64,000 nt of DNA from Ascidiella aspersa (GCA_963924565.1 OZ004614.1:10664001-10728000), one strand, 5' to 3'. Counted from the first letter of the stretch, positions 3 through 56,950 are shown. Numbers and translations are program-made. The notes: generated from the letters alone by a model not told the origin.

Positions 3-454
3 GTCGAAGACCCGGCCGCCATCATGGAGTCGCTGCTCTTGGAAGAGAAAGGCGCCGACGACGATAGCGGTGGTATTGGTGCGGCGGGAGCGATGCCAGC
101 GCACGGCGGTAGGGTTTACTCGCTAGCAGACATGTTCAATCAAGACGACTTCATCGAGGAGGACCTGCTGCGTCAGCATCAGCACCACGGCAACCGGTGG
201 AATGGCAAGGCACGCTCTAGAGCTGCTCAGAACAAGGCGGCCAAACTCCAGCAACAGCAACAGCAGCAGCAGCTTCATCAACAACAGCTCCAACAACAAC
301 AACAACAACAACAACAACAGCAGCAACAGCAGCAACAGCAACAGCCCTTCCAGCAGTACATGAACAGCATGGAGTCGCAGAAGCTCGCCCTTCAAATGAT
401 CACCAACCAGCAACAGGCTTTCAGCACAGCCAACACCATAACCACCAGTAGCAC

Positions 455-485
<31 letters not shown>

Positions 486-1160
486 ATGATCGCGCAGCAG
501 CAGGAGATTCTGGCCAAGGCGCTGTCGGGCCAGATGCAGGGCTGCTTGCCCACTCTGCTGCAAAGCATCTACGCAAAGAGCCAGGCCGCGCAAAGTCGCG
601 CCGCCGAGGACGCGGAGGCTGTGGTCCCGGTCGCAAAGTCCCCTGTACAGTCTCCCCCCGCTACAGTCGCTACAAACCATTCCACCCACAGCGAGTTTGA
701 GCACGCCAACTTGGCCGCCAAGTTGGAGCCGGCGAGTGGCGACGAGCCTATGGCCGAACACAACTGGAATCAAAACAACGCCAAGCGCAGTCGACGCAAG
801 GGAGTGCAGCCGATGCGACGCTACTCGTCCAACGACTCCGGCGTCAAACCGGAGGCAAGCCCGCGCGCTACCAGCGTCGTTGACAGCGGCATCGTCGGTT
901 CCTTGTCTCCGCGCTCGCCCACCCGGTCCTTTTGCTCCAGTGAGCCCGACGTCGGCCCCGTCGGCGGCCTCGCGATCGACCAGTCGTCGCCCGTGCGCTC
1001 GCAGTCGTCCGACGTCTCGGCCGTCGACACGCTCTCGTCGTCGCCGCGTGACGACAGTGATGACGTCATCGTGTCGCCCAATAGCTTCGCCCCGCCGTCG
1101 TTTGTGCTTTTCGGCGCCGCGGCCGCCGCCCGACCGATGGAGACCGGCAAGACCATGTGA
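3..1160 (+). CDS. 3' terminal exon (5'-truncated by window edge) of a polyQ/Ser-Pro-rich, probably nuclear protein
   Basis: Frame is open from position 3 (VEDPAAIMESLL...) to TGA 1158-1160. GC-rich coding-like composition drops sharply after the stop. Basic NLS-like KRSRRK. No recognisable globular domain in the window. Confidence 0.8.
249..485 (+). repeat. CAG/CAA trinucleotide tracts encoding polyQ (Q8-LH-Q3-L-Q18, then Q10)
   Basis: Direct reading; includes pure (CAA)9 at 291-317. Confidence 0.95.
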
Positions 1161-10557: not shown

Positions 10558-13500
10558 GTAAACGCGCAGTGCAAATGCGTTGTCGCAAATGAAATTGCTT
10601 AATATAGACTAGAATTTTTTTACTTTTATTACATAACACGAATCGATGTGTTTTACAAATGTTTTTTTACTGTTGTAGAAAAAACAGGCGCTTCAGTATG
10701 AAACACAGGAGTGCACTTTAAAGGTCATTTGAGCCTACAGCGATTGAGCCTAAGTCTCTTAACATTACTTTGCGAATTGCATTCGTTTATGTTGCTTTAC
10801 CAAAGTTGTTCCCGAGCTTTTTAGACTTGCGACCTCCTACAGAAACTGAATTGTTTGCGCCCTCCTTACTAAATGGTTTATTGTAACGTCACAAAAAACG
10901 GAATAAAACAGCACTCATAAAGTTTGCCCAAGGTCGAAAAAACCTTAATTTTTTGCACTCTAATCTTGTAAAAATTTGTATCAAGAAGATTTCTAATAGA
11001 GCAAACTTGGAATCAAAAGGACTTTGAAATATTTCCCGGCACCGTTGAGCGAAATGGCACCCATGGTGCTGCGGAACCCTTGTTAGGAACACTGCAAAGT
11101 TATACCATCAATTTAAGAGGACCGTTACATTTGAGGCACTTTTCTTTTACATTTCAATGTGTGCTCTACAGCTATTTCGACACTTTATACCTCAACCAAA
11201 AGTTTTTTTTATTCTCAGCATGTCATCATTCCTCCTAAGCCAGGGTTTCTTAATTAGGGGTACGAGAACTGTTCCTCGGGAGTACAGGGATGCTGAATCA
11301 AACACAGAAAATGTATTACTGTCGTTTATTTCATCGCTCAGTTAAATCTAAAACTAACTCACATTTTGGTATTTGACTGTGTTGTAAGTTACTTGTATAA
11401 AAATATAATTACAATGGTTTTGTTATTTAAGCAATTCTAGAAGGGATGCTAGAATTGTTTGGTGATTTGAAAGGGGTTCAGCAAGGAAAAAGGTTAAGAA
11501 CCACTGCCCTAAGGGGTCTTAAAATGTTCTCAGGCTGGTCGCCGTGTCTTATTGGTTAAACGAATAAATGTAGTAATTTGTGAAAACAAAAAGGATTTAT
11601 ATTAACTAAAAAAATAGCACTTAAAGGAGAAAGAATTAGCGCCAATCTGACAACTGAATTTATGACATTTGATGAAGTAAAACAGCCTCGTTTATTGGCA
11701 TTAGTCTTGTTTTTAATCAATGGCCGAAGCAGAGCTTTATTAGAATGGCCTTGTGTATTACGAAAATGAGACTTTTGGCGACACTCATAGTCGCGTAGGT
11801 TTTCGAAAACTGGGAAGGGCTGGTCTTGAAAAAGATGTTTTTATTTTAAATTAGGAAATTAGAAGTGCGACGCTGCCCTGTAGGCACAATATTGTGTGAA
11901 TGTTTAAAATAAAATGAACACCACAGGCGTTTACAATCGCGTTAAATAGAGCATAATTTCTCAACTTGTTTTTCGTCGTCCGTACGACTTGAAAATTTTG
12001 TGGAAGTCTATTTGTCGTTTTTAAGTCATTCTGGTGCTTTCCGACTAATTTGGGCGAAAATACACACTTTCATAAATAAGGGCATAAGTTTTATGGTATT
12101 GCTGCAAATATTATTAAAATATTCTTCCAATATCTTAACTTTGCGTTTTGAAACCTTATTGATTGAGGATAGCATAATCACATATTGTTATGTTTCTGAA
12201 TCCTAAAGGACAAAAAAACTCATGCATTATTCCGAAAAGTGCTGTCTGTCAAAAACCACTCGGCAACCGTCGGGTCAGCATTTCAAATGATGCTGCTTGA
12301 CCCGCTTCTGTGACGTAATAATTGCCCTCGTTTAACTTGTTGTTTTTGTCAGACGAAAGGCCTCATCCAGCAGCGAGAGTGATAGCGTCGCCAATAGCAG
12401 TGACGCATCCAGCGATTATGACGTCACAATGCGAAGTCCCGCCAAAAAAATTGAGCTTCCGAGTAGGAAGTCGAAACGGGTAAGATGGAGCTTGCAGATA
12501 TAAAACACTTTCTATTGGAAAATATCTGACATTTCTGTTTGCAATTTGTTAAATCTGTTAAGTAATATAAAACTTTTGCTTAAAATTTGAAAAAAATACC
12601 AAAAACAAAACATACACTTGTATTTGAAGAACTGGAACCAATGTTTTAGGAGGTACAAACTTCAATCAGGTCAACTGTTTTAGATGCGTTTTTTCGTAGA
12701 CTCAATTTTAAAAGTAATAATATGCGTGGTTCGATTAATCACCACACCAGTTCAACCCTAACTATAATCTTACCGTGATATTGACGTAAATTACGTGTCT
12801 ACTACAGGAATTTCCCCTTAAAATCGGTATTTGTTTTGACCTGAGCGAGCGAATAGCCACTCAGTGGTTATACGTGAATTGATTTGCCCAATTAAACCTG
12901 TGTCCGAAACTCCGGATTATGTTTTGCCAGTTGCGAGATTAAAACGGTCGCCGACCCGTAACAAAGGTGCACTTGTCGCTAATTTGACCTGGTTCAGCTA
13001 TTCGCAGAATTTTCTTTGTTTGGTCGGCTCGCCCTTTGATCTTGAGTCGTTTCTTTGAGTGCCAAGGACTTAATTTTGGAGTGCTCCATTTGCTATTTTG
13101 GCGACTTCGCCATCATGCGTTGTCTTTTTGTATTTTAGCAACCAACTGGCCCGAAAATCACACTCACACTTTCAAAGTCAACCGCTATTAAAACAGTTTT
13201 TCTTTGCGATTACAATCCGCATATTTTTAATGAAATGTTTTTTTCACGCATTTTTATGCTAAAAATGCGCATATGGCATCACCTACTTTATTTCACAACA
13301 TAAATAGAATGGTAAATGACAGCTTGAGAAGCACACTGTTTCGAACAAAAAATAGTCATGAAGGTTTTAAACTTTTAATCTATAGGTATAAAAATAAATG
13401 GCATCATCAGTTTATGTAAATAGTAAAAATTAAATACTAAAGGAACTTTTATCGCCGGTTTTATGTGTTCTGTTGTAGGGCAAGATTCTGTTATGGAAAC

Positions 13501-16500: not shown

Positions 16501-18794
16501 GTTAGACCACCGACATACACATAATCATATACATAATAATAATAATTATGTTTTTGATAAAAAAACTTCATTTCTTAAATTAGCAAAAGCGCTCAACGTG
16601 ATGTCAAAAGTAAGTCAAGCGCCGACGAAATAGACCATGTGGCCACTGCTGGTGATGGGACGAAAGAAGGAAATTCATCTCAAGAACAAACTCCGCCTAC
16701 CGTTGATGCAGTAAGATAAACTTTGGAGCATAGTGGTTGGAGGTTGTAGTAGGACTTAATGAGAATATCAAAGCACATACAGATGTTGAAAATGAATAAA
16801 GAGTTATTCGAAACGTTCAAAATGATACCTATTCTGTTTGGGCCTTGTATTCTTATTACGTAGTAAGATTAATGTTCGATAGACCTTGGTGTTTTGTTGT
16901 ATGCCAATCATTATTTGCGAACGTTTGTAACCTTCAATAAAATGTTAACCGCTTGTATTTTGCTCCCGTGGCATTTCTCCCAATTAAATGAACAGATAAA
17001 TATACACATTTTTTTTTCACTAAAAGCATTGTGTCTTCCGTTTAATATTTATGCATAACAGTTTTTTTACGTCGAGGGCTTCAATACAATTCGGTCTTGG
17101 TTAGTGGTTAATGGTGACATGTCTGTTAACAACATGAAAAAATACCATTTAGCTCGGTGGTTCTCAACCGCCGGTCCACGTCCACTTTCCTGCCGGTCTG
17201 TCAAATATATTACATTCTTAAATTTCAACTACAAAATGCAAGATGTTGAAGGCTTGTCCATCAAATTTAGAAGAAATTCGCCAGCTTCGTTATTTGCAAC
17301 ATTGTGACGTTACATAGAGTTAATGGTATACTTTGGACTTAATCTTACATCACAATGCAAGTGTTGTGCCCAACTGTTTAAAAGTAGGCTACAGCTCGTA
17401 TAAGTCCTAAATTTTAGGACCAGCTGTATGTGAAAAACTTTAATAGAACCACGAATAACACTTATGATATCAAAAAGACAGCAGCAAATTGCTCAATGGA
17501 AGTTTCTATTCTTTGCTTTTAAGTTGCATACCTTTGTCATATTTGGATTTTGGGTTGATTTTGATTTTTGAAGGTTCACCGATCCGCAAAATTTGTTTTG
17601 AAATTTTACCGGTCCGTAAGATAAAAAGGTGGAGAACCACTGATTTAGCTAGAACAGTACGAAATAAATGTTAAGGTTTCGACGACTTTCGACGATAAAA
17701 AGTCCCATAGTCGTCTCTAATTCATCATTCTGTTTTTATTCAGCTCGAAAAAGGAACGTTCGTTGCACTCGCTCCTGGCGCGAAGAAAGAGCGCGAGCGA
17801 CCCCTCGTGGCCAAGGTTGTGGACTTTGACGCAGAAGAAATGGAGGTCACGTGGTATTTGGGCGGCTACTCGACCAAATGGAGCCAAAGCGCGGCAGGTT
17901 AAGAGCGACAAGACTTTTGGCGACCAAGCAAATTTTGGAAACCAGAAACGAATATGTTGAAAATAAAAACCAAACTGAAATAGATCTCACCGAAAAAATC
18001 AAATCGTTTTTTTTTTTTTATATTTCGGACCTAACAACAAGAAAAGGATTAGGAACTTTAAACAAAATTTTAAATATGACGATCCAAGCGTATGTGATTG
18101 CAAACCCAGCAATCTACGGAACACCGGGCTTGAAAAGGGTACAGTTGCACACCTGGGTGTAATATATAAAGAAAAAAAAGCAATCGCTTTAGGCGTTACG
18201 GGTTAAAAACAATGCACTTGAACCGTTGTCGGCACCCTGTTCTAGCTTTTCACTATGCAATTGTCGAAGTGACTTTGGATATAATTGATTTGCTTGTTAT
18301 CGATTTGAACCGTTCAATATCAGGGAATAACCTCTTCCAAACTATATTATTACTTTTTGAAGGCGCTTTCCATTGCATCACATGGTTTTCGTCTTCTAAT
18401 TAAAAACAAATGATTGGTAGTTTAACGCCAATATTTCAATTGCAATATTTGCCAACCTAAATTAGATTTACGATAAAGATTATCCAACTTCTTGAATTTA
18501 TTGCGCTTGGCCATTAGGTAAGTAACAACTTAGACTGAGACTTTACTTGCTGGTTGTATAAAATAACATTAGTAAACGTGATTTTTCAGTAAATTAGCCA
18601 CGCCGCAAAGCTCATCTAAAACCGAATTCAATTGTTGTGCAGGTAAGGAGCTGCGTGCCAGCAAACGCGACAAAATAGCGAGAAGTCGGGTGATTTACGC
18701 CGGGTTTCAACTGACGGGCAAAGGAAAACTTCCTGTGCAAGTCATGAAGGAACTGCGGAAACTGTACGCTCAGATAGACAAAACAAAACGCTGA
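10456..18794 (+). CDS. Multi-exon uncharacterised protein (5' end unresolved): Ser/Lys/acidic disordered region plus C-terminal putative Tudor/SH3-like beta-barrel
   Basis: join(10456-10557,12353-12479,13629-13768,14466-14567,16584-16710,17744-17897,18643-18794). All AG/GT boundaries, phases compatible (2-2-0-2-2-0-1), no internal stops, TGA 18792-18794, AATAAA 18943-18948. Confidence 0.8.
11241..11506 (+). mobile_element. hAT-like MITE; uninterrupted copy of the element at 56235-56704
   Basis: TIRs CAGGGTTTCTTAA / TTAAGAACCACTG; flanks TCCTAAGC/CCCTAAGG. Aligns end to end with the reverse complement of 56235-56704. Confidence 0.85.
12353..12479 (+). CDS. gene 2 exon (RKASSSSESD...RKSKR)
   Basis: tttttgtcag| ... 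CGG|gtaaga, phase 2->0. Confidence 0.8.
13629..13768 (+). CDS. gene 2 exon (EARKKLN...DDDVDDDDMEYDF...SSK)
   Basis: ggttaag| ... AG|gtttgt, phase 0->2. Confidence 0.8.
14466..14567 (+). CDS. gene 2 exon (SNRRLSS...PRRNKA)
   Basis: gcttttcag| ... AG|gtcagt, phase 2->2. Confidence 0.8.
16584..16710 (+). CDS. gene 2 exon (KSAQRDV...PPTVDA)
   Basis: ttaaattag| ... GCA|gtaaga, phase 2->0. Confidence 0.75.
16722..16858. mobile_element. Rearranged copy of hammerhead-bearing short repeat family A (Penelope-like pLTR fragment)
   Basis: 16722-16783 matches the reverse complement of ~56509-56570; 16780-16858 matches 56455-56535 directly. Confidence 0.8.
16784..16819 (+). ncRNA. Minimal type I hammerhead ribozyme-like motif (U3-A8 variant)
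   Basis: tg TTGAAAA t GAATAA agag TTATTC GAAA C GTT ca. Confidence 0.5.
17155..17642. mobile_element. hAT/Charlie-like MITE, 488 bp
   Basis: TIRs CGGTGGTTCTCAACC / GGTGGAGAACCACTG; perfect 8-bp TSD ATTTAGCT. Confidence 0.9.
17744..17897 (+). CDS. gene 2 exon (LEKGTFVAL...VTWYLGGYSTKW...)
   Basis: tttttattcag| ... G|gttaag, phase 0->1. Confidence 0.85.
18643..18794 (+). CDS. gene 2 terminal exon (...VIYAGFQLTGKGKLP...KR*)
   Basis: gttgtgcag|, phase 1, TGA stop, AATAAA ~150 nt downstream. Confidence 0.85.
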
Positions 18795-19897
18795 ACGGGT
18801 GGGGTGCTGCGCTTTTGGCGGTAGTGCGTTACTGTGCTGTCTTTCGTTTTTGTTTTTTGCCTTTCATGCGTTCAGGCGTGCTGTAAATAGTTCTAGTTAT
18901 CGACACTTCGAAAGTTTTGTTCTGACTTGTTTGTTTTATTTCAATAAACCACAAATTGAGTTGCCGCAATTCGCTTAAGAAATTGCACCTTTCATTTTTG
19001 ATTTTGTGCACGGGTCGAATAACTTGTTTTGCTTTTTAAACTCAGAAGCCATTTTTTGCATTACGTTTTTTCAAATCTGTTTCAATTATATAAAATTAGC
19101 TAAATTGTGTTGTTCATTTTTTTCAACACCGAACCTGTTGTTTGTAGAATTATGTCCACTTAGCTTTGAATGTTGTTGTTCTGTTTTGTACTGCATCGTC
19201 AGTTCTCGAATTTTTGTTCCTCGTTGGTTTTGTTTAAGCTTTTGTTGTTGTCATGCCTTTTTTCTGTGTGCGCTATTCACGCCATAAACTCACCCGCTGC
19301 CTCTATAGATTGTGTGTTCAAGTATCTAGTCTAGCAACAATCATTCGTTTATAAGTCATTTTTTCCTTTGCAGGGGCCTCCGTGTTTAATCTAATTTCAA
19401 AGCAAACCGCGCCCAGCTTACAAAACATATTTTTTTTAATTGCCTCAGATTGACTCTTTTGAACTATATTTGTTAATTAAAATGTGAATGGTAGTTAAAA
19501 CTTCGATTGTTGCATTTGCATAAAAAAAAAACAGGGACACTCCCCCTGATGAGAGTTATTATAATAAAATTCGAAAAATCCACACGTTTTTATGACAAAA
19601 CTGTTAGTGGAAATTTCTTCGCCCCGCCAGATCTGGCTGAGTTTGTTTGGCCCGCGACTCGGAAAAGGTTATCCAACCCTGATATATAGACTATGAAGGA
19701 CGGAGGTATTGTGAGTTACCATACAATGGCTATGACAAAGGCATTAAATAATTTCCCGAATAGCACCAAAAATACATTACCTAGGTTGGATTAACATAGA
19801 AGAAAATGCATTATGGAGAGAGTTACCCTATAGCAGGGGTCCCAACCGTTTTCATCCTGTCCAAGGGTGCTTATAAAGCAACACTATAGCTACAGGA

Positions 19898-20335
19898 CGC
19901 CGTAATCGTTGGTCATAAAGCAGCTTCCGAGGGGCTAGATCACGGTTGTTATTATAAACACATATGTGTGTGTGTCTTTCATTGATTGATACGGACTGAT
20001 GATCCCCCAATGTGAAGTTGCTTTTACTAACAGAATGTGCAATTATTGGCGTATGGTTGTTTCTCGACTCGCTCCTCTCTGAACCTGCATAGCTCAGTTG
20101 GTAGAGCGACGGTCCCGGCTTGATCGGAGGTTGTGAGTGCGAACCTCACTGCAGGCCAGTTGTTTTTCTGGCTTGCTCTGCTTCCATCATAGATCGACAG
20201 ATTCGGCTAGTCTGCGATGGGTTTTTGGTGTACTATTGATACGGAAGCCGTAATCGTTGGTTATAAAGCAGCTTCCGAGGGGCTAGATCACAGTTATTAT
20301 TATAAACACATATGTGTGTATGTGTCTTTCATTCA
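19898..20335 (+). mobile_element. Non-autonomous retroelement with ~85-bp direct terminal repeats and internal tRNA-like sequence
   Basis: Direct repeats 19899-19983 and 20247-20333; 13-bp TSD TATAGCTACAGGA at 19885-19897 and 20336-20348. Confidence 0.85.
20083..20157 (+). pseudogene. tRNA-derived cloverleaf (not a canonical tRNA)
   Basis: Acceptor ACCTGCA/TGCAGGC; A-box TAGCTCAGTTGGTAGAGC; stem CGGTC/GATCG with atypical loop CCGGCTT; T-arm GTGAG-TGCGAAC-CTCAC; T5 at 20163-20167. Confidence 0.75.
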
Positions 20336-21357
20336 TATAGCTACAGGAGTATTTCCATAACGCCATGGTATTACGACCAACGAAATATTAAAACAAAGTA
20401 CGCAATAAATCTATGATTGAACTCGTTAAAATAAAACCCAAACGCGTAGAATCAAGGCAGTGTGAAAAATTGAATTTCAACATTTCGCACAACTATGCTA
20501 TCATTCTCCACGGAGGCACTTACGAGAGGTTTACATTTAAATTTTATACAACGCATTAAAAAATCATGCGAATAACGCTAAGTTATGATTTGCGTTTTTA
20601 GCACAATATTGCACAGAACGCAGCCATACACTCAGCCTATGTTTACGTCAGGCCTCCACCAGCTTTGCTACGTATCGCATGTCTTTGCGTCCGATCTATA
20701 TCGTGCGTATTGACAAAAAATGTATTTGCGAAAATGTGAGACTGGCTAAATTTTATCGCCTTTATTCTGTGCGCCAAATGATGTTACTCTTACTTTGAAT
20801 TTAATCACAATTTGAAAATTCAAAATGGCGGTTTCGCCGAGACAAATGATATATAAACCCTAAATGACACAAATCAGTTTAAAAGACACTTGTTTTTACT
20901 TTTCCTTAGATAAAGTGAAAAATAGTGACACCTTAGGTTGAAAAGCTTATCTAACAATTAAGTTATAGATTGTTAGAAAATCGACCTATCGCTGCTGTAC
21001 TTTTTATGCAATTTTAAGCTTTTGCCCTATGCTTAATGTCTGACATTTGAAACCAGTTAAAGTTACTTTCCTTACACTTTAAAGTTTTCTTAATTTTTAA
21101 TTGATTCTGTGGCGAAACAGTGTTTGGCTACGAACTTAGTCTTATGCATTACACTTCTTTAGTTAGGCAAATACCGTCTATAGTTGTGTAGTTAAATGGT
21201 GGTATGTAAAACACGTTACCAATTTGTGTAACGTGTTTTCGAGAACGTGTTGATTTTTGGACTTAAAAATGCGAGCAGGCTAGTGGACGTAATTCTGTCT
21301 GGATTGTTAGTTTTAAAATTAGTATTTCTGCAGGCTGAAATACCGAGAAACTCTATA

Positions 21358-21990: not shown

Positions 21991-23873
21991 CGATGCATAC
22001 TGCCTAATTTTATTGTAAAGAGCCTTTGGAGTGTCACACATTTTAAATAGTTCCGTACATTTGTTAACTAGACATACATTATTTTTCGAAATGTCGTAAG
22101 TATGGTCCCATTCGGGTGGAAAGGCAGTGAAACACTTGCTCGCTTGTTGATATGTGCGTTACAATCACCTGACGCAGCTAGCGGTTGTTTGCGAAAGCTA
22201 TAAAACAAAGCTGTATAGAAACTATAGAATCGCTTACTTTGGCTGTATCAGCCGCACGAGTCTTGATCTAAGTCAGAAATTTAGTTTCAGTGCTGGTAAC
22301 AGAAGATATTACGTGTCCAATGTCGGGCTCGTAGAAGCGCTGTGATTTAGTTCAAGGTCATATTAACCACCTATTTTCTGCTGAAGGTGTATGAAAGATA
22401 ATAAAACAAATCTAAATTATCTGAATGAAAAGTAACTAAGCATAAGGAATTTGTCCAGAAACTCGGCTCTGCATAGAACAGAGTAACGCATAATTTCTTG
22501 AAAACGCGGTGTTTAAATTGTTTGTCGACTAAGTTGTAGCTAAGGTCATTTGAAAGATGTTCCGTTTATTTCATAAAGCAACAATTGTGCCCCCTGTCTA
22601 ATGTTAAATTGCGAATTTGTACGTTTTTTTGCTGGAATCTTTCGTTTGTGTCGCCGCGTAACGATATGTTGATTTAAGGTAGCCAATTTATTGTCTTTCC
22701 ATCTGTCTGCTAACGTCCTATTCAAACGAAGCACAAGCGTAGAAACGTGCAAGACCATAAACAGGCTAAAGCGTCAGCAGCGAGGTATTGTTAAAACATA
22801 AATTGTGTAATTGTGACAGTTCTCAAACAAACTAACCTTCGCTTGTTTTCTACTAAGAAATGTGTTTATTTCAGACCAGACAGTCTCGTTTTTATTGCAC
22901 ACAGAATAGAAGCACTTTAAGTCATTAAGTAAACTTTCTAGTGTGCGCTTTATTTGAGTCACAGTTTCGTATAAACACGAAGGTACTGTGTCCGGAAATG
23001 CACCAGAAATTACGAAACGGACAGACTTTTACCAGAACGTCCTCTGGCAAACATTTGGCAATAACGCTGCGCAAATATCTCGCCGTCTCGCTGCCGCAAC
23101 TAAAAGGTGCTTAATAATATCGTCCGATCAAATGAGTATAGGAGGTGGGTGCGTTTTAAGGTAAAGCGGCGTCACGATGAAAAAGGTGGATGTTGTTTAT
23201 TTGGCATTATTCAGTGATCTCAGGTTTAAACAAGGAAACGTAAACGTATGGACAATCATTAGTACAGCACTCGCGGAAAGCGATTCGAGAACCCATGTTT
23301 AGCCTGTTTAATCGTTTTAACAATTCTTGCGACATATGTCTTGTCATATTTATTCAGGCTTATAACGAGATTTGTGTGAATTATTACTGTGTTGTATAAT
23401 ACGTATCCCTCACCAAAATCATCACCAAGTCAAAAGTCTACTTTTCCGAACAGCATGCTGGTGTTTTACTTTTAACCAAGTATATAAGTAAGCTAGCAGA
23501 CCGTTGTAAAAATCGTGGAATTGACAGAGTACAAATTACAGCAACATTGGAGTTTAAGCCTTAAATTTATACAAGCGTTTATATGCTATATTTCTGTAAT
23601 ACTGAGGAATGTAGAGTGAAATACGTAAAACTCAAACAAATATGTTTTATTTACGTATCTTTGTGTCATCTAATCGCTGTAAGGTACAGAATTGCCAATA
23701 TATCTGTAGTTCTATTCTAGGGCTTTGCAGCATACAAAGGTAATTAATAGCTTTAGCGTTAAACCCAAAAGTAAGCAAAATGTAGTCTCGAGTTTAATGC
23801 AGAATATGTCATCTTTAGGCACCGGAATATTATTTATAATGCTACTAAAATGCACTTTCGTAATTAACAGGCA

Positions 23874-23957
23874 TATAGTAAGAAGTATCAAAGCCCATAA
23901 GCAGCATTTTGAACGTTTCGAAAAACTCATTATTTATTTTCAACTTTTTTCAACATC
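23874..23957 (-). mobile_element. Diverged copy of hammerhead-bearing family A, ~80 nt upstream of GPCR ATG
   Basis: atagtaagaagtatcaaagcccata...cattttgaacgtttcgaaaaactcattatttattttcaac aligns to 56381-56456. Confidence 0.7.
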
Positions 23958-24037
23958 ATTTCGTTTTGTGTCGACAATCCTGATTTTCACGAACCGTATT
24001 ACCTCTTTGAAGCTCCCATTTTTTGTCAAAAAGGGCA

Positions 24038-24440
24038 ATGGCAATAAACCAACCCAACTGCGACTGGGTAATCGCCCCTTGGCTGCCGGGCTTTATCGCA
24101 AGTTCAGTCAACAGCAGCGAAACAGAGGCGGAAGACCTGATTCTGGAACATCTGGGAAATTGCCAGGACGCCGTTTTCAGCTATCTTTCCGATACTTACG
24201 TCTACACTCTGATCGCCCTTTACTGCATCATTCTTCCAATTGGATTCTTCGGCAATCTGACCGTGATGTGGCTCATCCTAAGCACTGCCAAACTTCGAAA
24301 GAGCATGAACTTTCTCTTGCTATCGCTGGCAGTGAGCGATTGGATTGCGGCGACCTGTATGCCGTGGACCCTTCATCACAACATCTCGTACGATTACGTG
24401 CTGGGCAAAATGCCTTGTCGAGCCCTGCCGCCCATCCAGG
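24038..24440 (+). CDS. GPCR exon 1 (N-term, TM1-TM3 start)
   Basis: ATG 24038; G|gtgagt, phase 1. Confidence 0.9.
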
Positions 24441-27156
24441 GTGAGTTGTTGCATTTCGAGCACTATACCTGGGTTTAATACATTTGCTTGCTAACGGTAA
24501 AGCTTGATAAACCTTCTGATTCTGGAGAGCTCTCCCAAGAGGGTTTATGTGTGGTTTACATTTACTTTCTTAAATGTTTCAATTACATTAAAAACTGTAA
24601 TTAATTACATCAACTACAATTTTCGGCACTGAAACTTCAATTTTCTTAATATCAATGTATTGAGCCAAAATTTATCAAATCACAATTAGAATTACGCAGA
24701 ATGAAAATGGCTCAATTACATTACAATTACATTAAAACCTGTAATTAATTACATCAATTACAAATTACAATTGATCCAACGCTGATGTGTGGTCACATAT
24801 TTGAAGAGAAACTTTGTTAGGCGTACTGATTTTTGTTAGCCTTTTCTTAGAGATTTTAATTTACTTGTGTCGCAAATTTTTAAAATAAAAATAGAAAGAA
24901 ATAGCTACGAAACGGCTTTATTAAGATAACTGAATGCCCAAACAAGCAAGTGGATTTTATTGTTTTTCGTGAAAAGTTACAGCAAATCAATCCAATTATC
25001 CTGGGCCGCATTTGCATTTAATCTAATGACGTTCTAAGTAAAATACCAGTCGAACATTTCCAATGGTTCGAAATTTTATTTAATGCAGGGTAATCAAGTG
25101 GCACTATATTAAGACAAATTGTTTTAAATTCTCGACAAGCTTTCGCACAACCGTGATTGATCAGGTCCAAGTAGAAAAAAACGGATGAAGCACGGTTGTA
25201 CGAAATCTTGTCGAGAATTCAAAGCAATTTGTCTTTAAGTAGTGCCACATGATTACCCTATTTAGAATTAGGCAAATATGACCATTTGCAAATATTAAAT
25301 AAAGTAATAATTGCGCCAATTCAGAGCGAAAATAAAAACTAATTGAAAAATAGAACGATTATTTGGCTAACAACCAAACGAACATAGTGCTTACTGCTTT
25401 GCCTGTTGTTTTCCTCGTTTTGAAAAATCAAACATAAAATTGTCACGTAGTTCTGCTAAGAATATTTTTTCGCAAAATAACATCTCGACACTTAAAACTT
25501 TTTAATCTAGGTACAGCGGTAATGAGCAGCATTTACGTCCTCGTCCTTATGTCGATCGAGCGCCACCAAGCGATTGTTTTCCCTACCCTCGATCGATTTC
25601 TTAGCTCCAATTTCAGAGTGGCCGTTTGTATCGCCGTTATGTGGATTCTCTCTTTCTGCTTTCAAGTAAGTTTGACGTTGCGGCTATCGTTTATTATTAG
25701 AGGTGACCAAAAGCGCTGTATTAACAGTATTGCCAATGAGGAAATTTCCAGAAAAAAATCTTTGCACGTCAAACGAATACCTGCAGTAATACCTCAATAC
25801 TTACGGACCTCGGCACTTTTGGCAAGAGTTCATCCAGAATGAAGAAACAATTACACATTTTAATTCAACAAAAAACAAGAACGTGGAAAACTAAAACATT
25901 AACGCTAACTTTTTAAAATGCACATGTGTACACTTTCTGGTAATTCGTTAAAATAGAAAGTTAACGGTAAATCTGCCTAAAAAGATGGTTTTAGATGTGC
26001 AAACAAACAATAACTTACAGATACTTAACTATCAAATATAGCCATATCAAAAAGTTGTTCAATGCTGGAGAACTGTTGATTGAAATTTCAAATTAAAGTA
26101 AAAGGTGTACAAAGGTAAAAAGGATAGTAAAAGTGAATCGCAACGAAAAGAATGTTAACAAGCTATGATTTCACTGATATTATAATTTTTTGTGCCAAAC
26201 CCAATCTGGCGAACATAAAATTATGTCATTTACCATCACCTAGCCTAGAACAAGTACGCCAACCAACACATAGAATAATATATAATTTTTTTTCTTCCTA
26301 TCCTGTTTTTCTTTCGCAGATCCCCCAATTAATCGTGCTCGAAGACGTGGTAATTGCCAACGGCACTTTCCCTTGGTTGGCAGAGCAAGACAGCGGTGGC
26401 TACCAGTCGGACAATGGGACACTCTCGCTTATCCAGCCCGGCATTGCTGTCAGCACGGTGGTGAGAGGCTGTATTGAAACCTGGAGCGACGACCAGGCTT
26501 TCTCCTACTCAATTGCAATACTCATAGTGCTCTATGTCATACCGCTCGTGGTGTTAGTACTCATGTACGCCAGAATCGGGTACATGCTCTCGATTCGGCG
26601 GCCTGTCGGTAACTTTCTTCCTGCCAGGGCGGCGGCGCGTTCCCGCAGAAAACGCCGGCTGATGTTGCTGTTTGTTTTGCTCGTGGTTTCGTTCGCCGTG
26701 TTCTGGGGTCCCTTTTTCATCCTGCAATGCTTGAAGGCTTGCCGAGAAGGCCTGTGTAACCCTGAAGTGATTTCCTATCTGCAGTGGCTCGGTCACGCGA
26801 ATGTGGCGCTCAACCCGCTCCTCTATGCAGCTTTGCACGAGCGCATTCGCGAAACCTTTCTCCTAAAGACGAGGGCCGTTCGCCTGCTTTTCGCTAAACT
26901 TTTCTGCGCTAAATGTAGGCCTACAAGTTCTTCCGTGACGCCGCGAAGCCCAAGGCGCTCTGGGGGCGAAGAAATGGCGACCATCAGCAACCCTACAGTT
27001 ATCCAGCGCTCGGCGCCTTCCAGTTTTAATCAAAACGCGGCGAACGCGATGCCCCTGCGTCCACGATCGGCGACGACAAAAAATGGAACTGCCGCCGATG
27101 AAACGCTAAACGGTCTTCAGCTTCCAGGCATCACGCTTTCTGAGGTTTCGGCCTGA
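24038..27156 (+). CDS. Class A (rhodopsin-like) neuropeptide GPCR, QRFP/NPFF-receptor-like, 464 aa
   Basis: join(24038-24440,25511-25665,26320-27156)=1395 nt. Motifs GN (TM1), LAVSD (TM2), ERH (DRY position), W (TM4), ECL2 Cys, FWGP (TM6), NPLLY (TM7). Confidence 0.92.
24578..24784. mobile_element. AATTAC-rich MITE fragment
   Basis: Many CAATTAC units, duplicated block CAATTACATTAAAA-CTGTAATTAATTACATCAA, ends CCAACGCTG. Confidence 0.55.
25087..25259. mobile_element. Inverted repeat (76-bp arms, ~87% identical, 21-nt spacer) with hammerhead-like motifs at the apex (family B)
   Basis: Arms 25087-25162 and 25184-25259. Each arm corrected by the other gives gac CTGATGA a GCAC ggtt GTGC GAAA G CTT gtc. 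Confidence 0.8.
25511..25665 (+). CDS. GPCR exon 2 (TM3-TM4)
   Basis: aatctag| ... CAA|gtaagt, phase 1->0. Confidence 0.92.
26320..27156 (+). CDS. GPCR exon 3 (ECL2, TM5-7, C-tail)
   Basis: ctttcgcag| ... TGA. Confidence 0.92.
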   Translation: MPQLIVLEDVVIANGTFPWLAEQDSGGYQSDNGTLSLIQPGIAVSTVVRGCIETWSDDQAFSYSIAILIVLYVIPLVVLVLMYARIGYMLSIRRPVGNFLPARAAARSRRKRRLMLLFVLLVVSFAVFWGPFFILQCLKACREGLCNPEVISYLQWLGHANVALNPLLYAALHERIRETFLLKTRAVRLLFAKLFCAKCRPTSSSVTPRSPRRSGGEEMATISNPTVIQRSAPSSFNQNAANAMPLRPRSATTKNGTAADETLNGLQLPGITLSEVSA

Positions 27157-29201: not shown

Positions 29202-32200
29202 CTGTAATTTGAGAATAGTCTGGTTGGACTTAAAGACATCGATAAGTAAAAGAAATCGAACGGCTTTACGTTACATTACGTGAAGCATTAAACAAAAAAA
29301 CACCGTTCTGAAGCCGCCACATTGTTCTGAAGATACCTTTAAGTGAAGTGCCCAAGCAACAAGGTTATGTGTTCGTAGCTGAAAAATATTTCTTTTTCGC
29401 AACTATTGGAAAGTTACTTGGTAAAGTTTGAGTTGCACACATTACTTTTTAGCATTTATTCATCGGTACACGTTTAATATGGGTTCTACAGTATGTGCAG
29501 TATGAAAAGATAGTAAAAAAGAGAAATTGTCGTTACAATCACACACATATCTAGTGGACTTTATTTTGGCTAACACATCCGTAAGCATTTTTATGCATAA
29601 CGTTGGAAATAACTATTGTTTACCGGTAATTTAATGTTTATCTTTCCAACATTATACAACAAGGTGCGCCCCACAGTGTGTTTTCGTAAAAGAATTGCGT
29701 AAATAATGACCCAAGTCAATACTTTTTTCATAAAAAAAAAAATGACCCAAGTCAATACTTTTTTCATAAAAAGGTCAAAATTTTTTTTTTTCTGCTTACC
29801 GTCGATAGAGAGACACGTCTTCTCCATGTCTTTGGACGTCACCTTGAAAGAAAACGATTCCTTGTATTTGGGATCGGCGGCTCCCTCTTGTACGAGCGTC
29901 CTTTTCGTCTTTACGACCTTGTGACCTTGGGTGAGCTCGACTCGGACAAAAATGTCTGCCAAAAAGAGATAAAATCTAACAATGCATGCAGTGCAATGCT
30001 ATTTATGATGTGTGAAATAAAAGAGCGGCGCAGCCTTTTTGTCCTATTTATTTTATTCTATTTCTATAGCACCAGCTGACCTTTTTTAAAATTAGCCTAT
30101 AGTTTGATATTAATTTTAAGTCTCACAACACAGCTATCATGTTATGTAAATATTTTGATGTGATATAAATTATACACTATAGGTTAAAGCAGGGGTTCTA
30201 AATGTTTTTGTATGTTTTGCCCTTTTAACAAACATGAATAACAGATTTACCCCCAATATATAAAATTGTGTTCATTTATTAAAATCCAAAGTAACAAATT
30301 ACATCAGGTATCATCAGTTATATAAATGACGTAACAATGAAGTAAGTATAAGAGATAAGGATGTTACCAACAAATTAAAAAAGAGTAACAATTAGCAAAG
30401 CTTAACGTTACCCACACTATATAGACGATAAATAATTAATGACTAGTCAACTAGACTAGCTTCGAATGATCAGCAGTTCAGCTGAACTTAAGGAAAGTAG
30501 GTTACCAATACCTATATATAGCTGCCAAAATGTTTCTGTTCCGGTTATAAATAAAATACACCAAAGCAGTAAATTAAACCTGTTTCTTGCAAGTCCATCT
30601 GGCGAAGATTTTTCGCTTCTAGTATGACCACTGTAAGCCGATCGAGGGCTGGGTTGTAAGCGAGGGAAACATGCAGTTCTCCCAACGAAGTGCCCGTGTC
30701 GCCCGGCTGCAAGTAAAGAAGTTCAGTTTTGTTTGCTTGCTAAGAGAAATGTAAGGTCAACGTCGATTTGATGCAACACGTTGCCTATGTGACAGCAAAA
30801 AACAAGCCCGCAGATTGGTTGGATAAAAATAAAGTCAATCACCCAACTGGCTAAAATTGATGTTATGATAATATAGGCTTTTCCATTCCAGGCATTACAT
30901 GACAGCCCGTGAAATTTGCAACAGCCGTTGATACTGTATCGTACATATGTAAGGACACGCATAATTCACTACGAAAACCAGTCGATCAAAAGCCAAGGAG
31001 TTTGGCGTTCGACATGACTAAATTTGACAACATGTACCACCATAGTACCAAGTCAACCAAGCATATAGCCATAAAAAGTCAGGGTTAGCCTACGATAGCG
31101 ATTATAAAAGTCGTACATGCAATTGCCAAATATTTTACTACTATAATATGGATACTGTTTTCTGGTCTCCCTTTAAGCCTCATAAACAACCAAACTCTAT
31201 CCGGGTAGAACAGGGCGGGAAATTGCTTAAGCTTTCCAGTTTTTTTTTTTTGCTCATGCAAAATTCAATAAACATTTAGCGTTTCACAAACTCACGTGAG
31301 CGATTTCGTCCAGGTCTCTCCACATAACCTCGTCGGCTCGCGATGGGTCGATGTCGTTCAGGCTCACCAGAGCGTGACCGAGCAGATGACGTGTCGACTT
31401 TCTCTTGTCGAGATCGTAAACTGAGAGTCGCAAGGACCGCGACTTGATGTCCGAGTCAGACACCTGAATGCAAAAGTTACGAATGTTTTTGTTTTGGTTT
31501 GGACGTTGGTAGAAGGCCACGTTGTGTAGTAAGTGATCGCGCAGCGTTGTTAACCAGACATTTTGAAATAATTCAAGTCAAAGTGAAGCATTTTCAAAAA
31601 TATTAGGTTCAAGTCATTAGTTGCCCATGTCAAGTCCCAGTCTAGTCATCATTAAAGAAAGTCAACTCGAAGTCAAGTCAATCCTATAAAAGTAAAACGT
31701 TGAATTATTTAAAAAAATTATGAGCAATACCTCAACTTAAAATTAACAAAAATGCAAAATATATCAAGCAAATTGTGTGTTTTTTTTTAATTCAGGTCTA
31801 TAACCCTATTTTATACAATAATTTTAAATAAAAACACTTAATTTCAGCCCAAGTCATTTGACGAATGATTAAAGTCCGAGTCAACTCATTTGACCAAAAT
31901 ACTTCGTTGAAGACGAGACAGAAAAAACAGTGACGTCATTACCACCCTGGAGCCGCAGATCCTATAATATAGGCAACAACTCGACGGGTTTAAATTTGTA
32001 AATCCATAACCAGGTAAAATGTTTGCAAATTTGTATTTAAATTGCTTAATGTTTGAAAGTCAATGCAGTCTCAATTTGAAACCAGAAACTTCGTACAAGC
32101 GCTTATCACAACCGGTTTGCGTAGACCGCGGTTTTCCTGGAGTTTGTTTTTTATTTGGCAGGTAATATATAGCGATATAAGCAAAGTACCAAGTCTGCTC

Positions 32201-35200
32201 AAATATTTCAAATCCTCTTGTATCCGTATGCAAATAATAATAATATCTGTTTGCAATCCTTAGTTGGAAAAGAATGGCCCAAACGACAGAACTTTTATAG
32301 ATAATATTGCCAAAACTTAAGAGCGTTTTTTCATAAGGGCCACTTAAATGAATACAGACCATGTCATACAATCACTATATTGTATACCAACAGACAAACA
32401 CCCGTTAAGAGCTTCTTCGTTTACTGTTGTCTGTTAATGTGCACAGATATGTACCTGGAAGACGAAGCTTTCGTTGAAGAGCGGGTTGTTGTTTCGGGGT
32501 CGGACCTTGGTTTGTTGCGAGATGCGCTCGTCTGGCAGAAGAAAGAGCTTGACGAAGCTGTCACGCGGGCTGTTGCTGTTGTTGCGTCCCGGAAGCTGCT
32601 TCACCTGAGAGTCATGTGTGTGACCATTAGTTGTTCTCATATACATTACCCTTGTTCGCATATACAGGGTGGGCCAAAAGTAGGCTTACAGTTATTTGGC
32701 ATGGAAGAAAAAGAAGCATTAAATGGCCACCATGCTCACCTGACCTGACCTGACATCAATGAATCTATTCTTTTTTTGGTTTTCGTTTTGGAGTGTTGTA
32801 AAGAACAAGGTGTGTGAGAAGAACCCCAAAACAATAAATTTTCTTTTAGACCCAAACCCTACTTTTTATAACTGTAAGGATACTTTTGGCCCACTCTGTA
32901 AATGTTGCACAGAATATTTTATCGTTTGTGTGTGTTGTTTTCGCCTTATTTAAACTATTGCGTTGTCACTTACTCTTCTTGCCTCTTCACGTCTGCACCT
33001 CAACTGTTTCTTTCACCTGTTTGTATCTCATTTAATCACGTTTGCTGTAAACACCTTTTTATATTTTGTTACTGTAGCCATCACAGCTTTCTGCATGCCC
33101 TGTAGTTTTGAAAAGGCTTTATAGTAGTCGACAGTCAGTTTGGTAAGGTGTGGATTAACAACAGTTTAGATCATCTTCGTTTGCGTCCGATTTTTAATAT
33201 TTTAGCCATGTTTTGTATTCCAATGCAGCAAATTCTATTTTTTATTGAACAACATAGGTTAATAACGGAAGGTAAACAAAATAAATCTTCTTTCCACTTA
33301 TGCTAATTTTGAATTATTAACCTGAAAAAATAACTTTAAATGTTTGAACTTAATCTATCTTGTTTGTTTAAGCACAGTAATGATGTCATTTAGTTTTGGA
33401 TAGCGGTACTTTATACCCATAATATTGGGTATCGGTACTAGAACAAAATGCCAAGTATCGGACATCCATTTTTGAACTAAAAACCGACAGGCCGTGAAGT
33501 AGAAATCGGATATTTTTGCGTGGCATTCATACCCAGCAAATATTTTATGTTAAAGGCATGTGGCCGAGAAGTGGTTATTAAAGATCTTTTTCGCCGGATT
33601 TTTACTTCACTACTTCAATCAATGCTGTCCGGAAGACGCGTTTAAACTTACCTTGATGACCTTGACTGTAAGCGATTCCACTGCTCCGTCATAAACGTAG
33701 GAAAACCAAACCCTCCCTCTTCTGCTTTGCGGAAGCTCCGTCTCGCTAGCTTTTGAGTATCTGGATGAAATATTTATATCACAAACTGATCTAATGTCGG
33801 TATCCATAATGTAGATTTTATTTATTTAGCAAGCAACTAGCACGTTATCTATAGATATCACTCTTCTAAAAGGATATTTTCGTAGGTTTTTTAAGGACTG
33901 ATGTTAATAAGCAACACTTAAGTCATTTGACAATACATGAACGTATACTTTTGAACATTTGTAGGAATATTATGGCCATATAGAAATAGGTAACCTTAGT
34001 TTTTATATGTACTTTGATATTCCTACTACGTCTAACCAAATCTACAACCATACTTCTTTGAATCTTGTAAACTTGCCCAATTAAAGATTTTATTTACTTC
34101 GAAAACTATACAATTAGGTGAAAATGCCCTGTTAAAGACACTTAACCCGGTGTTAATTTACAGAGCAGCAGTTACATAAAAGAACGCGTGACGCATAAGA
34201 CGCCTAATTTTCATTAATTCATATTGGCGTTTTTTTATTTCGTATGGTTCGATTGAGGTTCGGCTAGTATAGTAACTCGACCTTCACCTGTAAAGCTCCG
34301 GTTGTATTCTGCCTATCATCATGTTCCTCGCTCTGTTGGGAGAATCCTGGATAGAGTCCCTACTAGGAGAAGTCGGGTGCAGTCGCGGTGCTTCTAGAAA
34401 GAACAATCGTGCACGTAAGAAAACAATCACATTGAAGCAATTATATGTTTTGAGATGATGTTCGCTTATCGTTTTACTCCTTTTATGTGTTTTTTTTTCA
34501 TTACTCGTCCCACAACTGTAAGTTATAGCCTCTTGTGAGTAGCCTCTATGTCAGTGTTCGGCAAACTTTTTTCGTTGCGGCACAAAAAACTTTTTCCAAA
34601 TCTATTGAAGACCCACTACGTTAAACCACTACGGTGCGGACCCAGAATGGGCTAAAAGTATAGTTAAAAGAAGCCATGGCCTGAAGGTCCTGTGATGCAA
34701 CAATGAGTCAAGATAAAACTCTCAGCAACACTGAGAGTTTTAATTCAGTACAATGCCCGGCTATTGTGCGGCCTACAACTCCATGATAAACCTAGTCTAA
34801 TAAAAATAGCTTGCGGCCGGGCCCACTAAAAATGGCTCAAAAAGCCCACATTTAGGCCGCGCGGCCCACAGTTTGCCGGCCACTGCTCTACGAACCCGGC
34901 GAATCGCTGCAAGCCCCTCACAGACAAAGAGGTGGTGATTAATGTCTTAGATATTTTAAACAGATTCTGTTTTGTTGTGTAAATGAATAAAGAGATATTC
35001 AAAGCGTTTTAAATGACACCTACTTTTATATTGGCTTTGATATTCCTACTAATTAAAACATCCGTCAAATTAAACCTCTAAACCAATAATCTGTTTTATT
35101 CCGCATTACAAACAGAACAGGTTACGCCTATTATTGGTTGAAACCTTTGTTCCGTTAATTACCATGTTCGACCGGTTGTTCGCAAGCCAACGTGCTGGAA

Positions 35201-56060: not shown

Positions 56061-56376
56061 CTTTAAAATTATGATGTACAGGCATGGTTTTAGAAATAAG
56101 TGGACTTAATTTTGACAAACCATATAGGGATGGTCACAGAAAAACTCGCAAGCCAGCTATCTGACCAGGACACAACAAAAGCAACTCACCCCAAGTAAAT
56201 AACGCGGCAAGATTTAAAAAATCACTTTATACCATAGTGGTTCTTAACGTTTTTCCTTGCTGCATCCCTTTTAAACCACTAACCAATTCTCGCACCTACT
56301 TCTAGAATTGTTTAAATAACAAAACCATTGTAATTTAATTTTTATACAGGTAACTGATAAAACAATACCAAATGTG

Positions 56377-56570
56377 AGATATAATAAGAATATCAAAGCC
56401 CATACAGAAGTAGGTATCATTTTGAACGTTTCGAATAACTCTTTATTCATTTTTCAGATGTTGAAAATGAATAAAGAGTTATTCGAAACGTTCAAAATGA
56501 TACCTACTTCTGTATGGGCTTTGATATTCTTATTATATCTTACTCCAACCTCCAACCATTATGCTCCAAA
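56377..56570. mobile_element. Family A hammerhead-bearing insertion: near-perfect 80/79-bp palindrome plus 30-nt tail
   Basis: Arms 56377-56456 and 56462-56540; flanked by duplicated host sequence CCAAA(A)TGTGAGATA (56368-56381, 56566-56580). Confidence 0.9.
56459..56494 (+). ncRNA. Minimal type I hammerhead ribozyme-like motif (U3-A8 variant)
   Basis: Identical to 16784-16819. Confidence 0.5.
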
Positions 56571-56950
56571 ATGTGAGATAGTTTTACATTTAATTGAGCA
56601 AAGAAATAAATTACAGTAACATATTTTCCGTGTCTGATTCAGCATTCCCACACCCCCTTGGAACAGTTCTCGCACCCCAGGGGGGTACTGGTTAAGAAAC
56701 CTTGTTCTAGAACCTTGGGCTTCAGCGCCCGACACCCGTAAAACTTTTTTACAACGTCTAAGCGTGAGGTTGTGCGAGTCAACAGCCGCTCGGCAGTTCG
56801 ATGCCGTCACGACGCGTTACGCGGTGTTTCTTTTACGACTTTGGGGCCTGTTTACGAGCAAAAGTGCGCCATAGCAGCGAAGCGCGATACCGCAGCCGAT
56901 AAAAATGTGGCGCAACGTCTGTGGTGTCGGCATCGGGACGAAATCAATAT

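What the first reader, a model, noticed from the sequence alone, without database searches (positions are those of the whole stretch)
19885..20348. 438-bp element with a tRNA-like core in the middle, direct terminal repeats and a 13-bp TSD
Seen: TSD TATAGCTACAGGA, then R1 (85 bp), ~100-nt leader, tRNA-like cloverleaf with all four stems pairing but non-canonical anticodon and T loops, a GCCAG-TTGTTTTT-CTGGC hairpin that holds the T5 Pol III terminator in its loop, two more hairpins (CCATC..GATGG; CGGAAGC..GCTTCCG), R2, and the TSD. The 11-mer ATTGATACGGA occurs both after R1 and before R2. Established: classic SINEs begin at the tRNA head and lack terminal repeats; LTR elements have 4-6-bp TSDs and TG..CA ends. 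Inference: a circularly permuted 1.25-unit insert copied from a tandem or circular Pol III-derived RNA, or a PLE-dependent tRNA-containing mini-element.
Basis: partly seen in the sequence, partly recalled or inferred. Interest (0 to 1): 0.75.

Follow-up and report, generated by a model that had tools for sequence, protein, structure and literature searches.

The report
tRNA-carrying Penelope-type partial tandem retroposon
A 438-base insertion in a probable sea-squirt genome has a tRNA look-alike in its middle and the same repeat at both ends; it belongs to an abundant repeat family that likely borrows the enzyme of Penelope-like jumping genes, and no known self-cutting RNA was found in it.

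Summary
The anatomy is real: 13-bp TSD, 88/90-nt repeats 348 nt apart, central tRNA fold. Reads show a family of about 1,800 tRNA-bearing copies, about 400-800 of them close to this copy outside the tRNA. Copies do not start at the tRNA, and the upstream repeat is family-wide, so this is not a chance SINE fusion. The odd T loop is private to this copy (98.6% of reads are canonical). All 4 listed inverted joints have one arm starting at 20230-20238. The target also matches 20232-20245 (1 of 9,051 control sites). Both point to a preferred 5' end, not free permutation. Depth suggests mostly 1.3-unit copies and an optional 40-nt tail. These are Penelope-like (PLE) hallmarks, so the best reading is a non-autonomous PLE parasite carrying a tRNA gene. 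No known ribozyme was found. The partner, the RNA, circles and long arrays were not shown, and copy ends were not mapped directly. The scan noted the same architecture in three other genomes (unchecked notes), and these notes moved my reading. Closest in print: Schistosoma Sm-alpha, non-LTR retrozymes, pLTR-captured cargo.

The parts
19885..19897 (.). Left target-site duplication (13 bp); with the 2 nt before it, it resembles unit 20232-20245 (5'-junction microhomology)
   Evidence: end-anchored score reached by 1 of 9,051 control positions
19898..19947 (+). R1 head: 5' copy of the terminal repeat (pLTR-like, inferred); in the family it likely extends about 15 nt further left
   Evidence: 736 of 745 reads over 19898 carry the unit's A, not this copy's C
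19948..19985 (+). R1 tail with AC/TG-rich hairpin; internal copy of the putative optional tail
   Evidence: fold; depth
19985..19995 (+). 11-mer after R1; also resembles the TSD; variable in the family
   Evidence: right-junction similarity reached by 3.6% of control sites; loose ends
19996..20082 (+). Leader; 19995-20031 is a degenerate inverted copy of the R head, predicted to pair with it; 20060-20082 is about as deeply covered as the tRNA
   Evidence: depth
20083..20157 (+). tRNA-like cloverleaf with A and B boxes; family majority letters restore three stem pairs and the T loop; one extra base between the D and anticodon arms
   Evidence: majority letters at 20083, 20124, 20139 and variable-loop letter 20132
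20155..20172 (+). Hairpin with T5 (Pol III terminator-like) in its loop
20173..20229 (+). Trailer X with a hairpin and a second T run (T5 here, T4 in 95.6% of reads)
20230..20245 (+). Inferred preferred 5' end of the family's RNA or cDNA; holds the second 11-mer (20235-20245)
   Evidence: 4 of 4 listed opposite-strand joints have one arm starting at 20230-20238; simulation 168 of 200,000
20246..20295 (+). R2 head: 3' copy of the terminal repeat; predicted to pair with the leader and close the tRNA+X domain
   Evidence: most pairs of 20266-20294 at probability 0.9 or more
20296..20335 (+). R2 tail (40 nt) with AC-rich stem-loop; likely start site of reverse transcription; likely missing from most 3' repeats in the family
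   Evidence: summed R depth 8,481 -> 5,927 -> about 4,500; analogy to PMC11167929 and PMC8557442
20336..20348 (.). Right target-site duplication

Best explanation
This is one copy of an abundant 348-nt repeat unit that carries a tRNA-like gene, inserted as 1.26 units between a 13-bp target duplication, and it is likely a non-autonomous parasite copied by the enzyme of a Penelope-like element (PLE). Shown: the anatomy, the family, the family-wide upstream R, the intact tRNA boxes in the family, and the 5'-junction microhomology. Inferred steps: (1) A plus-strand RNA starts near unit position 20230, just after the second T run, and runs R-tail-leader-tRNA-X-R-tail. It is most likely started from R as from a pLTR, or cut from a read-through transcript. 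It is unlikely to be the direct Pol III product of its own tRNA, because T5 would stop that transcript and the leader would be missing. (2) PLE endonuclease cuts the target with a 13-nt stagger. (3) Reverse transcription starts internally at one of two sites about 40 nt apart, either at the end of the R head or at the end of the tail; this copy has the tail. (4) The enzyme copies back through X, tRNA, leader and R to about 20232, either on a more-than-unit RNA or by jumping onto a unit RNA. (5) The cDNA end anneals to the look-alike target overhang and closes the 5' junction; other insertions gain an inverted 5'-truncated head. The tRNA gene is the best-kept part across subfamilies. It likely acts as a Pol III promoter in rare tandem source loci (as described for Sm-alpha) or keeps the locus open, rather than serving translation.
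For: Partial tandem with direct repeats. Family-wide upstream R: depth 3,551 at 19966 and 3,145 at 20010, against 8.3 in the unique right flank. X depth 6,134 plus leader depth 3,145 gives 1.09 times the summed R depth of 8,481, where 1.0 is expected for pure partial tandems and 2.0 for long arrays. All 4 listed opposite-strand joints have one arm starting at 20230-20238 and the other arm variable (19908, 19925, 20053, 20125); the 19908 row (sides 47-58 nt, contig depth 279) fits only a head-to-head joint. That is the inverted, shorter 5' head described for PLEs (PMC3846280, PMC8557442, passages). 5' microhomology: 1 of 9,051 control sites scores as well; the same kind of junction is described for Pen2_Av. 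Depth drops at about 20295, 40 nt before the end, matching the optional 30-40-bp tail, and the tail holds an AC-rich stem-loop like the PAc initiation site. R1 and R2 share five letters that 74-85% of reads lack, so both come from one minority subfamily. The plus strand folds better than the minus strand (z -4.3 against -3.3). pLTRs alone can move unrelated cargo in trans. PLEs are noted in this genome, and similar units in three other genomes (unchecked notes).
Against: No autonomous partner sharing R was found; no genome was available and the window holds no second copy. Copy ends were not mapped directly. Only 15 of 309 joints and 24 of 1,528 loose-end rows were shown, each inverted joint rests on 0-4 DNA reads plus contigs, and the 9-nt window was chosen after seeing the data. 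Direction could be inferred for 2 of the 4 joints only. The depth drop at 20295 could come from clipping, because R2 has several private changes there. The 85% cut-off loses diverged subfamilies, so all ratios are rough. The TSDs in the PLE passages read are 8-10 bp, not 13. In vitro, PAc starts at a site not homologous to the target, whereas this right junction has weak similarity (3.6% of controls). 5' inversions and microhomology also occur with LINEs (own knowledge; cites this for LINEs). No hammerhead was found, unlike most canonical pLTRs (Naiads also lack one). The R:leader helix alone is only modestly above chance (87 of 5,000 and 22 of 400 shuffles; 216 of 2,514 and 3 of 314 window segments). 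One of 16 control windows folded at z -3.5.
Confidence: 0.65

Rival explanations
1. Retrozyme-like circle: a unit-length RNA is cut out by an unknown self-cleaving motif near 20220-20245, or by RNase P/Z acting on the tRNA fold, then circularised and reverse-transcribed round the circle for more than one turn. It could use the same PLE enzyme.
For: The unit folds well as a circle (z -4.2 leader-first, -2.5 R-first). Its size, 348 nt, lies in the retrozyme range. R1 and R2 share subfamily letters. A 20300->19955 back-joint has 110 DNA reads. The preferred 5' end sits in a hairpin whose 7-bp and 3-bp stems follow the first half of the HDV-like order when majority letters at 20221 and 20226 are read (by hand; row 20219).
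Against: No known ribozyme (Rfam). Hammerhead cores occur only with a mismatch and a 1-bp stem II. The HDV-like candidate lacks the recalled L3, P1.1 and P4 features, and the loose descriptor gave 233 raw hits, so it does not discriminate. A circle predicts scattered stop points, but the 5' ends seen cluster. tRNA processing would put ends at 20083 or 20157, where depth shows no step. The back-joint reaches at most to about 20224-20227 and can arise from R1/R2 equivalence, so it does not prove full tandems. RNA reads show both directions and no discrete ends.
Confidence: 0.15
2. LINE-dependent tRNA SINE with an unusually long leader, whose 5' repeat comes from frequent template jumping or dimer formation.
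For: 13-bp TSD, 5' microhomology and 5' inversions all fit LINE-type TPRT (own knowledge). A and B boxes are intact in the family. X->R depth is about twice R->leader depth, so many copies may lack the 5' R.
Against: No poly(A) (no run of 4 or more A on the plus strand) and no clear simple-repeat tail. T5 lies 5 nt after the tRNA. Depth shows no step at the tRNA 5' end or 10-20 nt before it. Hundreds of copies have R upstream. The preferred 5' end lies downstream of the tRNA.
Confidence: 0.12
3. LTR mini-element (TRIM-like), or a DNA-level nested insertion in which the 11-mer is the TSD of a tRNA module inserted into an R dimer.
For: Direct terminal repeats; the exact 11-mer flanks both R and the body (162 of 20,000 shuffles).
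Against: TSD is 13 bp, not 4-6. No TG start is seen at either repeat. Inverted joints and a microhomologous junction are not integrase products (own knowledge). The 11-mer varies in the family. A one-off nesting cannot explain hundreds of R->leader copies, although the 11-mer may be a fossil of the unit's origin.
Confidence: 0.05

Closest known systems
EN+ Penelope-like elements: partial tandems, inverted heads, optional tail and pLTR-captured cargo in Adineta vaga (PMC3846280, passages), PAc of Anolis (PMC11167929, parts 1-2 of 4), Naiad/Chlamys with non-autonomous MRC1 (PMC8557442, passages)
   Same: Partial tandem giving direct pseudo-LTRs; inverted shorter 5' head; likely 40-nt optional tail with an AC-rich stem-loop; microhomology at the 5' junction; non-coding cargo between repeats
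   Different: The cargo is a well-kept tRNA-like gene with a terminator, amplified to more than a thousand copies; TSD 13 bp against 8-10 bp in the passages read; no ORF, no hammerhead; sequence link to a PLE not shown
Schistosoma Sm-alpha / Sj-alpha (seen through PMC6765202 and PMC2770079, passages; original papers not read)
   Same: tRNA-derived, Pol III-type promoter that ends up inside or at the 3' side of the mobile unit; repeats of at least two units needed to propagate
   Different: Sm-alpha is cut by a hammerhead; none was found here; here a T5 follows the tRNA and most copies look like 1.3 units
Animal non-LTR retrozymes (PMC7229834, passages and section 13; bioRxiv 10.64898/2026.07.22.740005, parts 1-3 of 5)
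   Same: 150-450-bp non-coding unit, GC under 50%, long TSD, strongly self-paired RNA, proposed PLE dependence
   Different: Defined by a type I hammerhead in each unit and by circular RNA; no hammerhead here, circles untested, tRNA inside
Classic tRNA-derived SINEs (own knowledge)
   Same: tRNA-derived A and B boxes, TSD, high copy number
   Different: tRNA in the middle, terminator right after it, terminal repeats, no poly(A) or simple-repeat tail

Membership tests
Non-autonomous PLE | Partial tandem forming direct pseudo-LTRs | tested here: met
   family-wide by depth
Non-autonomous PLE | Inverted 5'-truncated head next to the 5' repeat in some copies | tested here: inconclusive
   4 of 4 listed opposite-strand joints share an arm at 20230-20238; head-to-head inferred for 2; 15 of 309 joints seen
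Non-autonomous PLE | Optional 30-40-bp tail | tested here: inconclusive
   Summed R depth halves across about 20295, but clipping at private changes could do the same
Non-autonomous PLE | 3' sequence shared with an autonomous PLE (RT plus GIY-YIG) | not testable with these tools
   No genome held; no ascidian assemblies or repeat library on offer
Non-autonomous PLE | No coding capacity; TSD present | tested here: met
   No ORF of 110 aa or more over the insert; 13-bp TSD
Non-LTR retrozyme | Type I hammerhead in each unit | tested here: not met
   Rfam; motif scans; tested on this copy only
Non-LTR retrozyme | Tandem repeats of two or more units | tested here: inconclusive
   The back-joint does not prove full tandems; depth ratio 1.09 favours partial tandems
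Non-LTR retrozyme | Abundant unit-length linear and circular RNA | not testable with these tools
   One long-insert RNA-seq run, both directions, no discrete ends
tRNA-derived SINE | Element begins at the tRNA head | tested here: not met
   Depth 14,672 upstream against 15,526 on the tRNA
tRNA-derived SINE | No Pol III terminator inside the body | tested here: not met
   T5 at 20163-20167; no variant there among the 40 of 271 rows shown
tRNA-derived SINE | Poly(A) or simple-repeat tail | tested here: not met
   (this copy only)
tRNA-derived SINE | Intact A and B boxes | tested here: met
LTR mini-element (TRIM) | 4-6-bp TSD and TG..CA ends | tested here: not met
Functional cytosolic tRNA gene | Canonical cloverleaf geometry | tested here: inconclusive
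   Family letters restore stems and the T loop, but two bases lie between the D and anticodon arms; a G34 Thr anticodon is unusual in eukaryotes (own knowledge); tRNAscan-SE not available

The most novel reading that the evidence does not exclude
This is a member of an undescribed, multi-species class of ribozyme-free 'tRNA retrozymes'. In these 335-355-nt PLE parasites a tRNA gene replaces the hammerhead module, and the unit RNA is released at a fixed point near 20230 by a new self-cleaving motif or by host processing, closed by the R:leader helix, and copied for more than one turn.
Probability: 0.2. Interest if true: 0.8.

Novelty: new variant of a known kind. Interest (0 to 1): 0.55.

Why it matters
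SINEs are treated as parasites of LINEs. A family of more than a thousand tRNA-bearing copies with Penelope-type insertion marks would show that PLEs also have tRNA-derived parasites, without the hammerhead that defines Sm-alpha and retrozymes. At 348 nt it would be a minimal substrate for the open questions of how pLTRs, tails and inverted heads form, now that a PLE protein works in vitro (PMC11167929). The fixed 5' end without a known ribozyme gives a defined place to test for a new RNA-cutting motif. Practically, such copies inflate tRNA gene counts and would be mislabelled as SINEs or LTRs.

Tried and rejected
No genome was held. Within the window there is no second copy by blastn or nhmmer. 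Pattern scans for other copies: viral contigs 0, metagenomes 0 and 0. Prokaryote genomes gave 11 hits that share only the 18-21-nt word and are treated as chance. Earlier findings by sequence and by relatives: 0; one word search 0. The ends of family copies were not mapped directly, so the tail and the 5' end rest. Rejected: C/D snoRNA in the leader (no Rfam hit; the C-box-like word varies in loose ends); hammerhead at 19996 (mismatch, 1-bp stem II); twister in R (motif words present at 19903 and 20251, but by hand no T1/T2 pseudoknot partners against a recalled consensus; no Rfam hit). HDV-like ribozyme: the hairpin near 20198-20215 recalled the P4 arm of the CPEB3 ribozyme (from memory, no call), but the rest of the fold was not found. 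A 10-nt repeat flanking the tRNA (D11) and a 13-nt inverted match in the right flank (I3) were judged chance by rough count. The 20300->19955 joint was first read as proof of tandems, then dropped as proof. In the minimum-energy fold the leader out-competes the cloverleaf (-34.0 against -23.1 kcal/mol); this was not tested on family letters. Ten paper searches listed no title or abstract opening that describes a tRNA-bearing, ribozyme-free PLE parasite; most listed papers were not opened, and Repbase, Dfam and SINEBase could not be searched. Supplements of the bioRxiv preprint were not seen and may list such units.

Full report
Observation. The sequence is as described. A perfect 13-bp duplication (19885-19897, 20336-20348) encloses 438 bp. 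R1 (88 nt) and R2 (90 nt) lie 348 nt apart and differ by 5 substitutions and a 2-nt indel. ARAGORN and Rfam both call a tRNA at 20083-20157. The window is from an animal (7tm_1 and C2 domains); earlier notes on the same genome call it a sea squirt (not tested here).

The family. Reads of four runs were laid on 19700-20599 at 85% likeness. Contigs match both unique flanks without a difference (X1 records 1 and 8), so the species is the same; the individual may differ. In raw DNA reads (X21) the right flank has depth 8.3 and the tRNA 15,095 at 20083, about 1,800 copies if the flank is one diploid locus. X has about 735, the leader 377-788 and R1 about 400. The left flank has depth 1-3 only, so these are rough numbers. 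Depth is 14,672 in the bin just upstream of the tRNA and 15,526 on it, so copies do not begin at the tRNA. The large loose ends at 20013, 20045 and 20052 are homologous leader variants, which means subfamilies. Depth stays above 3,100 across the R1-leader junction.

The tRNA. Majority letters restore the first acceptor pair (92.4%), an anticodon-stem pair (94.9%) and the T loop (98.6%). The loose end behind 20118 (1,278 reads) reads as a canonical loop with anticodon GGT. The odd loops are thus decay of this copy. An extra base between the D and anticodon arms remains. T5 follows 5 nt later, with no variant among the 40 of 271 rows shown. A Pol III transcript would be about 95 nt and would lack R, so it is unlikely to be the mobile RNA (inference from known Pol III termination).

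Ends. All 4 opposite-strand joints among the 15 of 309 joints shown have one arm starting at 20230-20238; the other arm is 19908, 19925, 20053 or 20125. Random ends do this in 168 of 200,000 trials, with the window chosen after the fact. For the 19908 row only a head-to-head joint fits, since sides of 47-58 nt and contig depth 279 cannot lie in the unique left flank. In this copy the target end aligns with 20232-20245; 1 of 9,051 control positions scores as well. In other copies, 736 of 745 reads over 19898 carry the unit's letter. So the 5' repeat likely starts near 20230, and the cDNA ran past the visible start of R1 and annealed to the target overhang. On the 3' side, summed R depth falls from 8,481 to 5,927 at 19948/20296 and to about 4,500 in the last 40 nt. 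This fits an optional tail but could be clipping. X depth plus leader depth is 1.09 times R depth, near the 1.0 of partial tandems and far from the 2.0 of long arrays. The back-joint 20300->19955 (110 DNA reads, 75 starts) reaches back at most to about 20224-20227 and can come from the likeness of R1 and R2, so it is no proof of full tandems. R1 and R2 share five letters that 74-85% of reads lack, which favours one template over fusion of two random copies.

RNA structure and expression. The unit folds better than shuffles (z -4.3 linear, -4.2 circular, leader-first; -3.2 and -2.5 R-first; minus strand -2.7 to -3.6; 1 of 16 control windows reached -3.5). The main feature is a helix between the R head and leader 19995-20031 that closes the tRNA and X. 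Most of its core pairs have probability 0.9 or more, and the 49% A/G variant at 20271 pairs either way. On its own the complementarity is marginal (87 of 5,000 and 22 of 400 shuffles). Its outer end, about 20294, coincides with the depth drop, as if the leader began as a tail-less inverted pLTR (inference). No known ribozyme was found. The RNA run has 1,114 reads in both directions, 4% of the DNA level per megabase, and no discrete ends. This fits copies inside host transcripts and says nothing on small or circular RNA.

Mechanism. Partial tandem, inverted shorter head, optional 30-40-bp tail, 5' microhomology and cargo between pLTRs are all described for EN+ PLEs (PMC3846280 and PMC8557442, passages). 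PAc starts reverse transcription internally at two sites in an AC-rich stem-loop, and the tail is the stretch between them (PMC11167929, parts 1-2 of 4). I therefore read the element as a non-autonomous PLE parasite (0.65). A plus-strand RNA from about 20230 is copied from the tail end back through the unit and R again, then joined by microhomology. The helper, the promoter and the RNA are not shown. Rivals are a retrozyme-like circle (0.15), a LINE-dependent SINE with template jumps (0.12) and an LTR or nested DNA event (0.05).

Comparison and novelty. Sm-alpha is tRNA-derived and tandem, and is cut by a hammerhead that leaves the promoter at the 3' side (PMC6765202 and PMC2770079, passages; originals not read). 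Non-LTR retrozymes are defined by the hammerhead and are proposed to be PLE parasites (PMC7229834, passages and section 13; bioRxiv 10.64898/2026.07.22.740005, parts 1-3 of 5). This element works like them but fails their defining test, and it fails the SINE and TRIM tests. Also seen as passages, with no bearing on the verdict: PMC7761336, PMC8501958 and PMC9977147. Ten searches listed no description of such a family, but most hits were not opened and repeat databases were out of reach. The scan's notes report 341-, 334- and 355-bp units of the same build in three other genomes. They share no indexed words with this one and are unchecked. They moved me from a SINE-dimer reading to the PLE reading, which I then tested. 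Verdict: new variant of a known kind, interest 0.55.

Noticed in passing
window 19546-19577: Hammerhead-like core with a 5-bp stem II, 320 bp upstream of the element; no matching stem I seen and no Rfam hammerhead hit; possibly a decayed PLE stub. Its 21-nt likeness to the R tail (D2) rests on AT-rich letters private to R2.
   Followed up: partly
window 19832-19870 and about 19600-19682: Short stretches that look like ends of hAT-type MITEs (recalled motif, not tested) next to the insertion site
   Followed up: no
window 20360-20419: Read depth 21-38 against 8 with shared variant letters: a low-copy repeat or duplicated stretch in the right flank
   Followed up: no
window 19700-19879: Depth only 1-3 in the raw DNA run against 8 on the right flank: the sequenced individual may carry diverged or rearranged alleles here
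   Followed up: no
window 20261 (RNA run X22): 43 RNA reads leave the element at 20261 into one sequence (agreement 0.94): likely a truncated copy inside an expressed transcript
   Followed up: no
window 20295-20297 to 19954-19962: Several contigs have 4-11 unrelated letters in place of the first bases of the tail, each different (table 5c); may mark the tail-less end or a hypervariable spot
   Followed up: partly
window 51900-52238: Tandem array of 4.1 copies of an 83-bp unit, 96% alike
   Followed up: no
window 56236-56678, 11257-11505, 16722-16858, 23873-23944, 34978-35051: A dispersed repeat family with inverted arms, MITE-like
   Followed up: no
window 3-1160 (+): Open frame with long glutamine runs and no Pfam hit
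   Followed up: no
window 24011-27156 (+) and 29591-29998 (-): Exons of a rhodopsin-family GPCR and of a C2-domain protein
   Followed up: no
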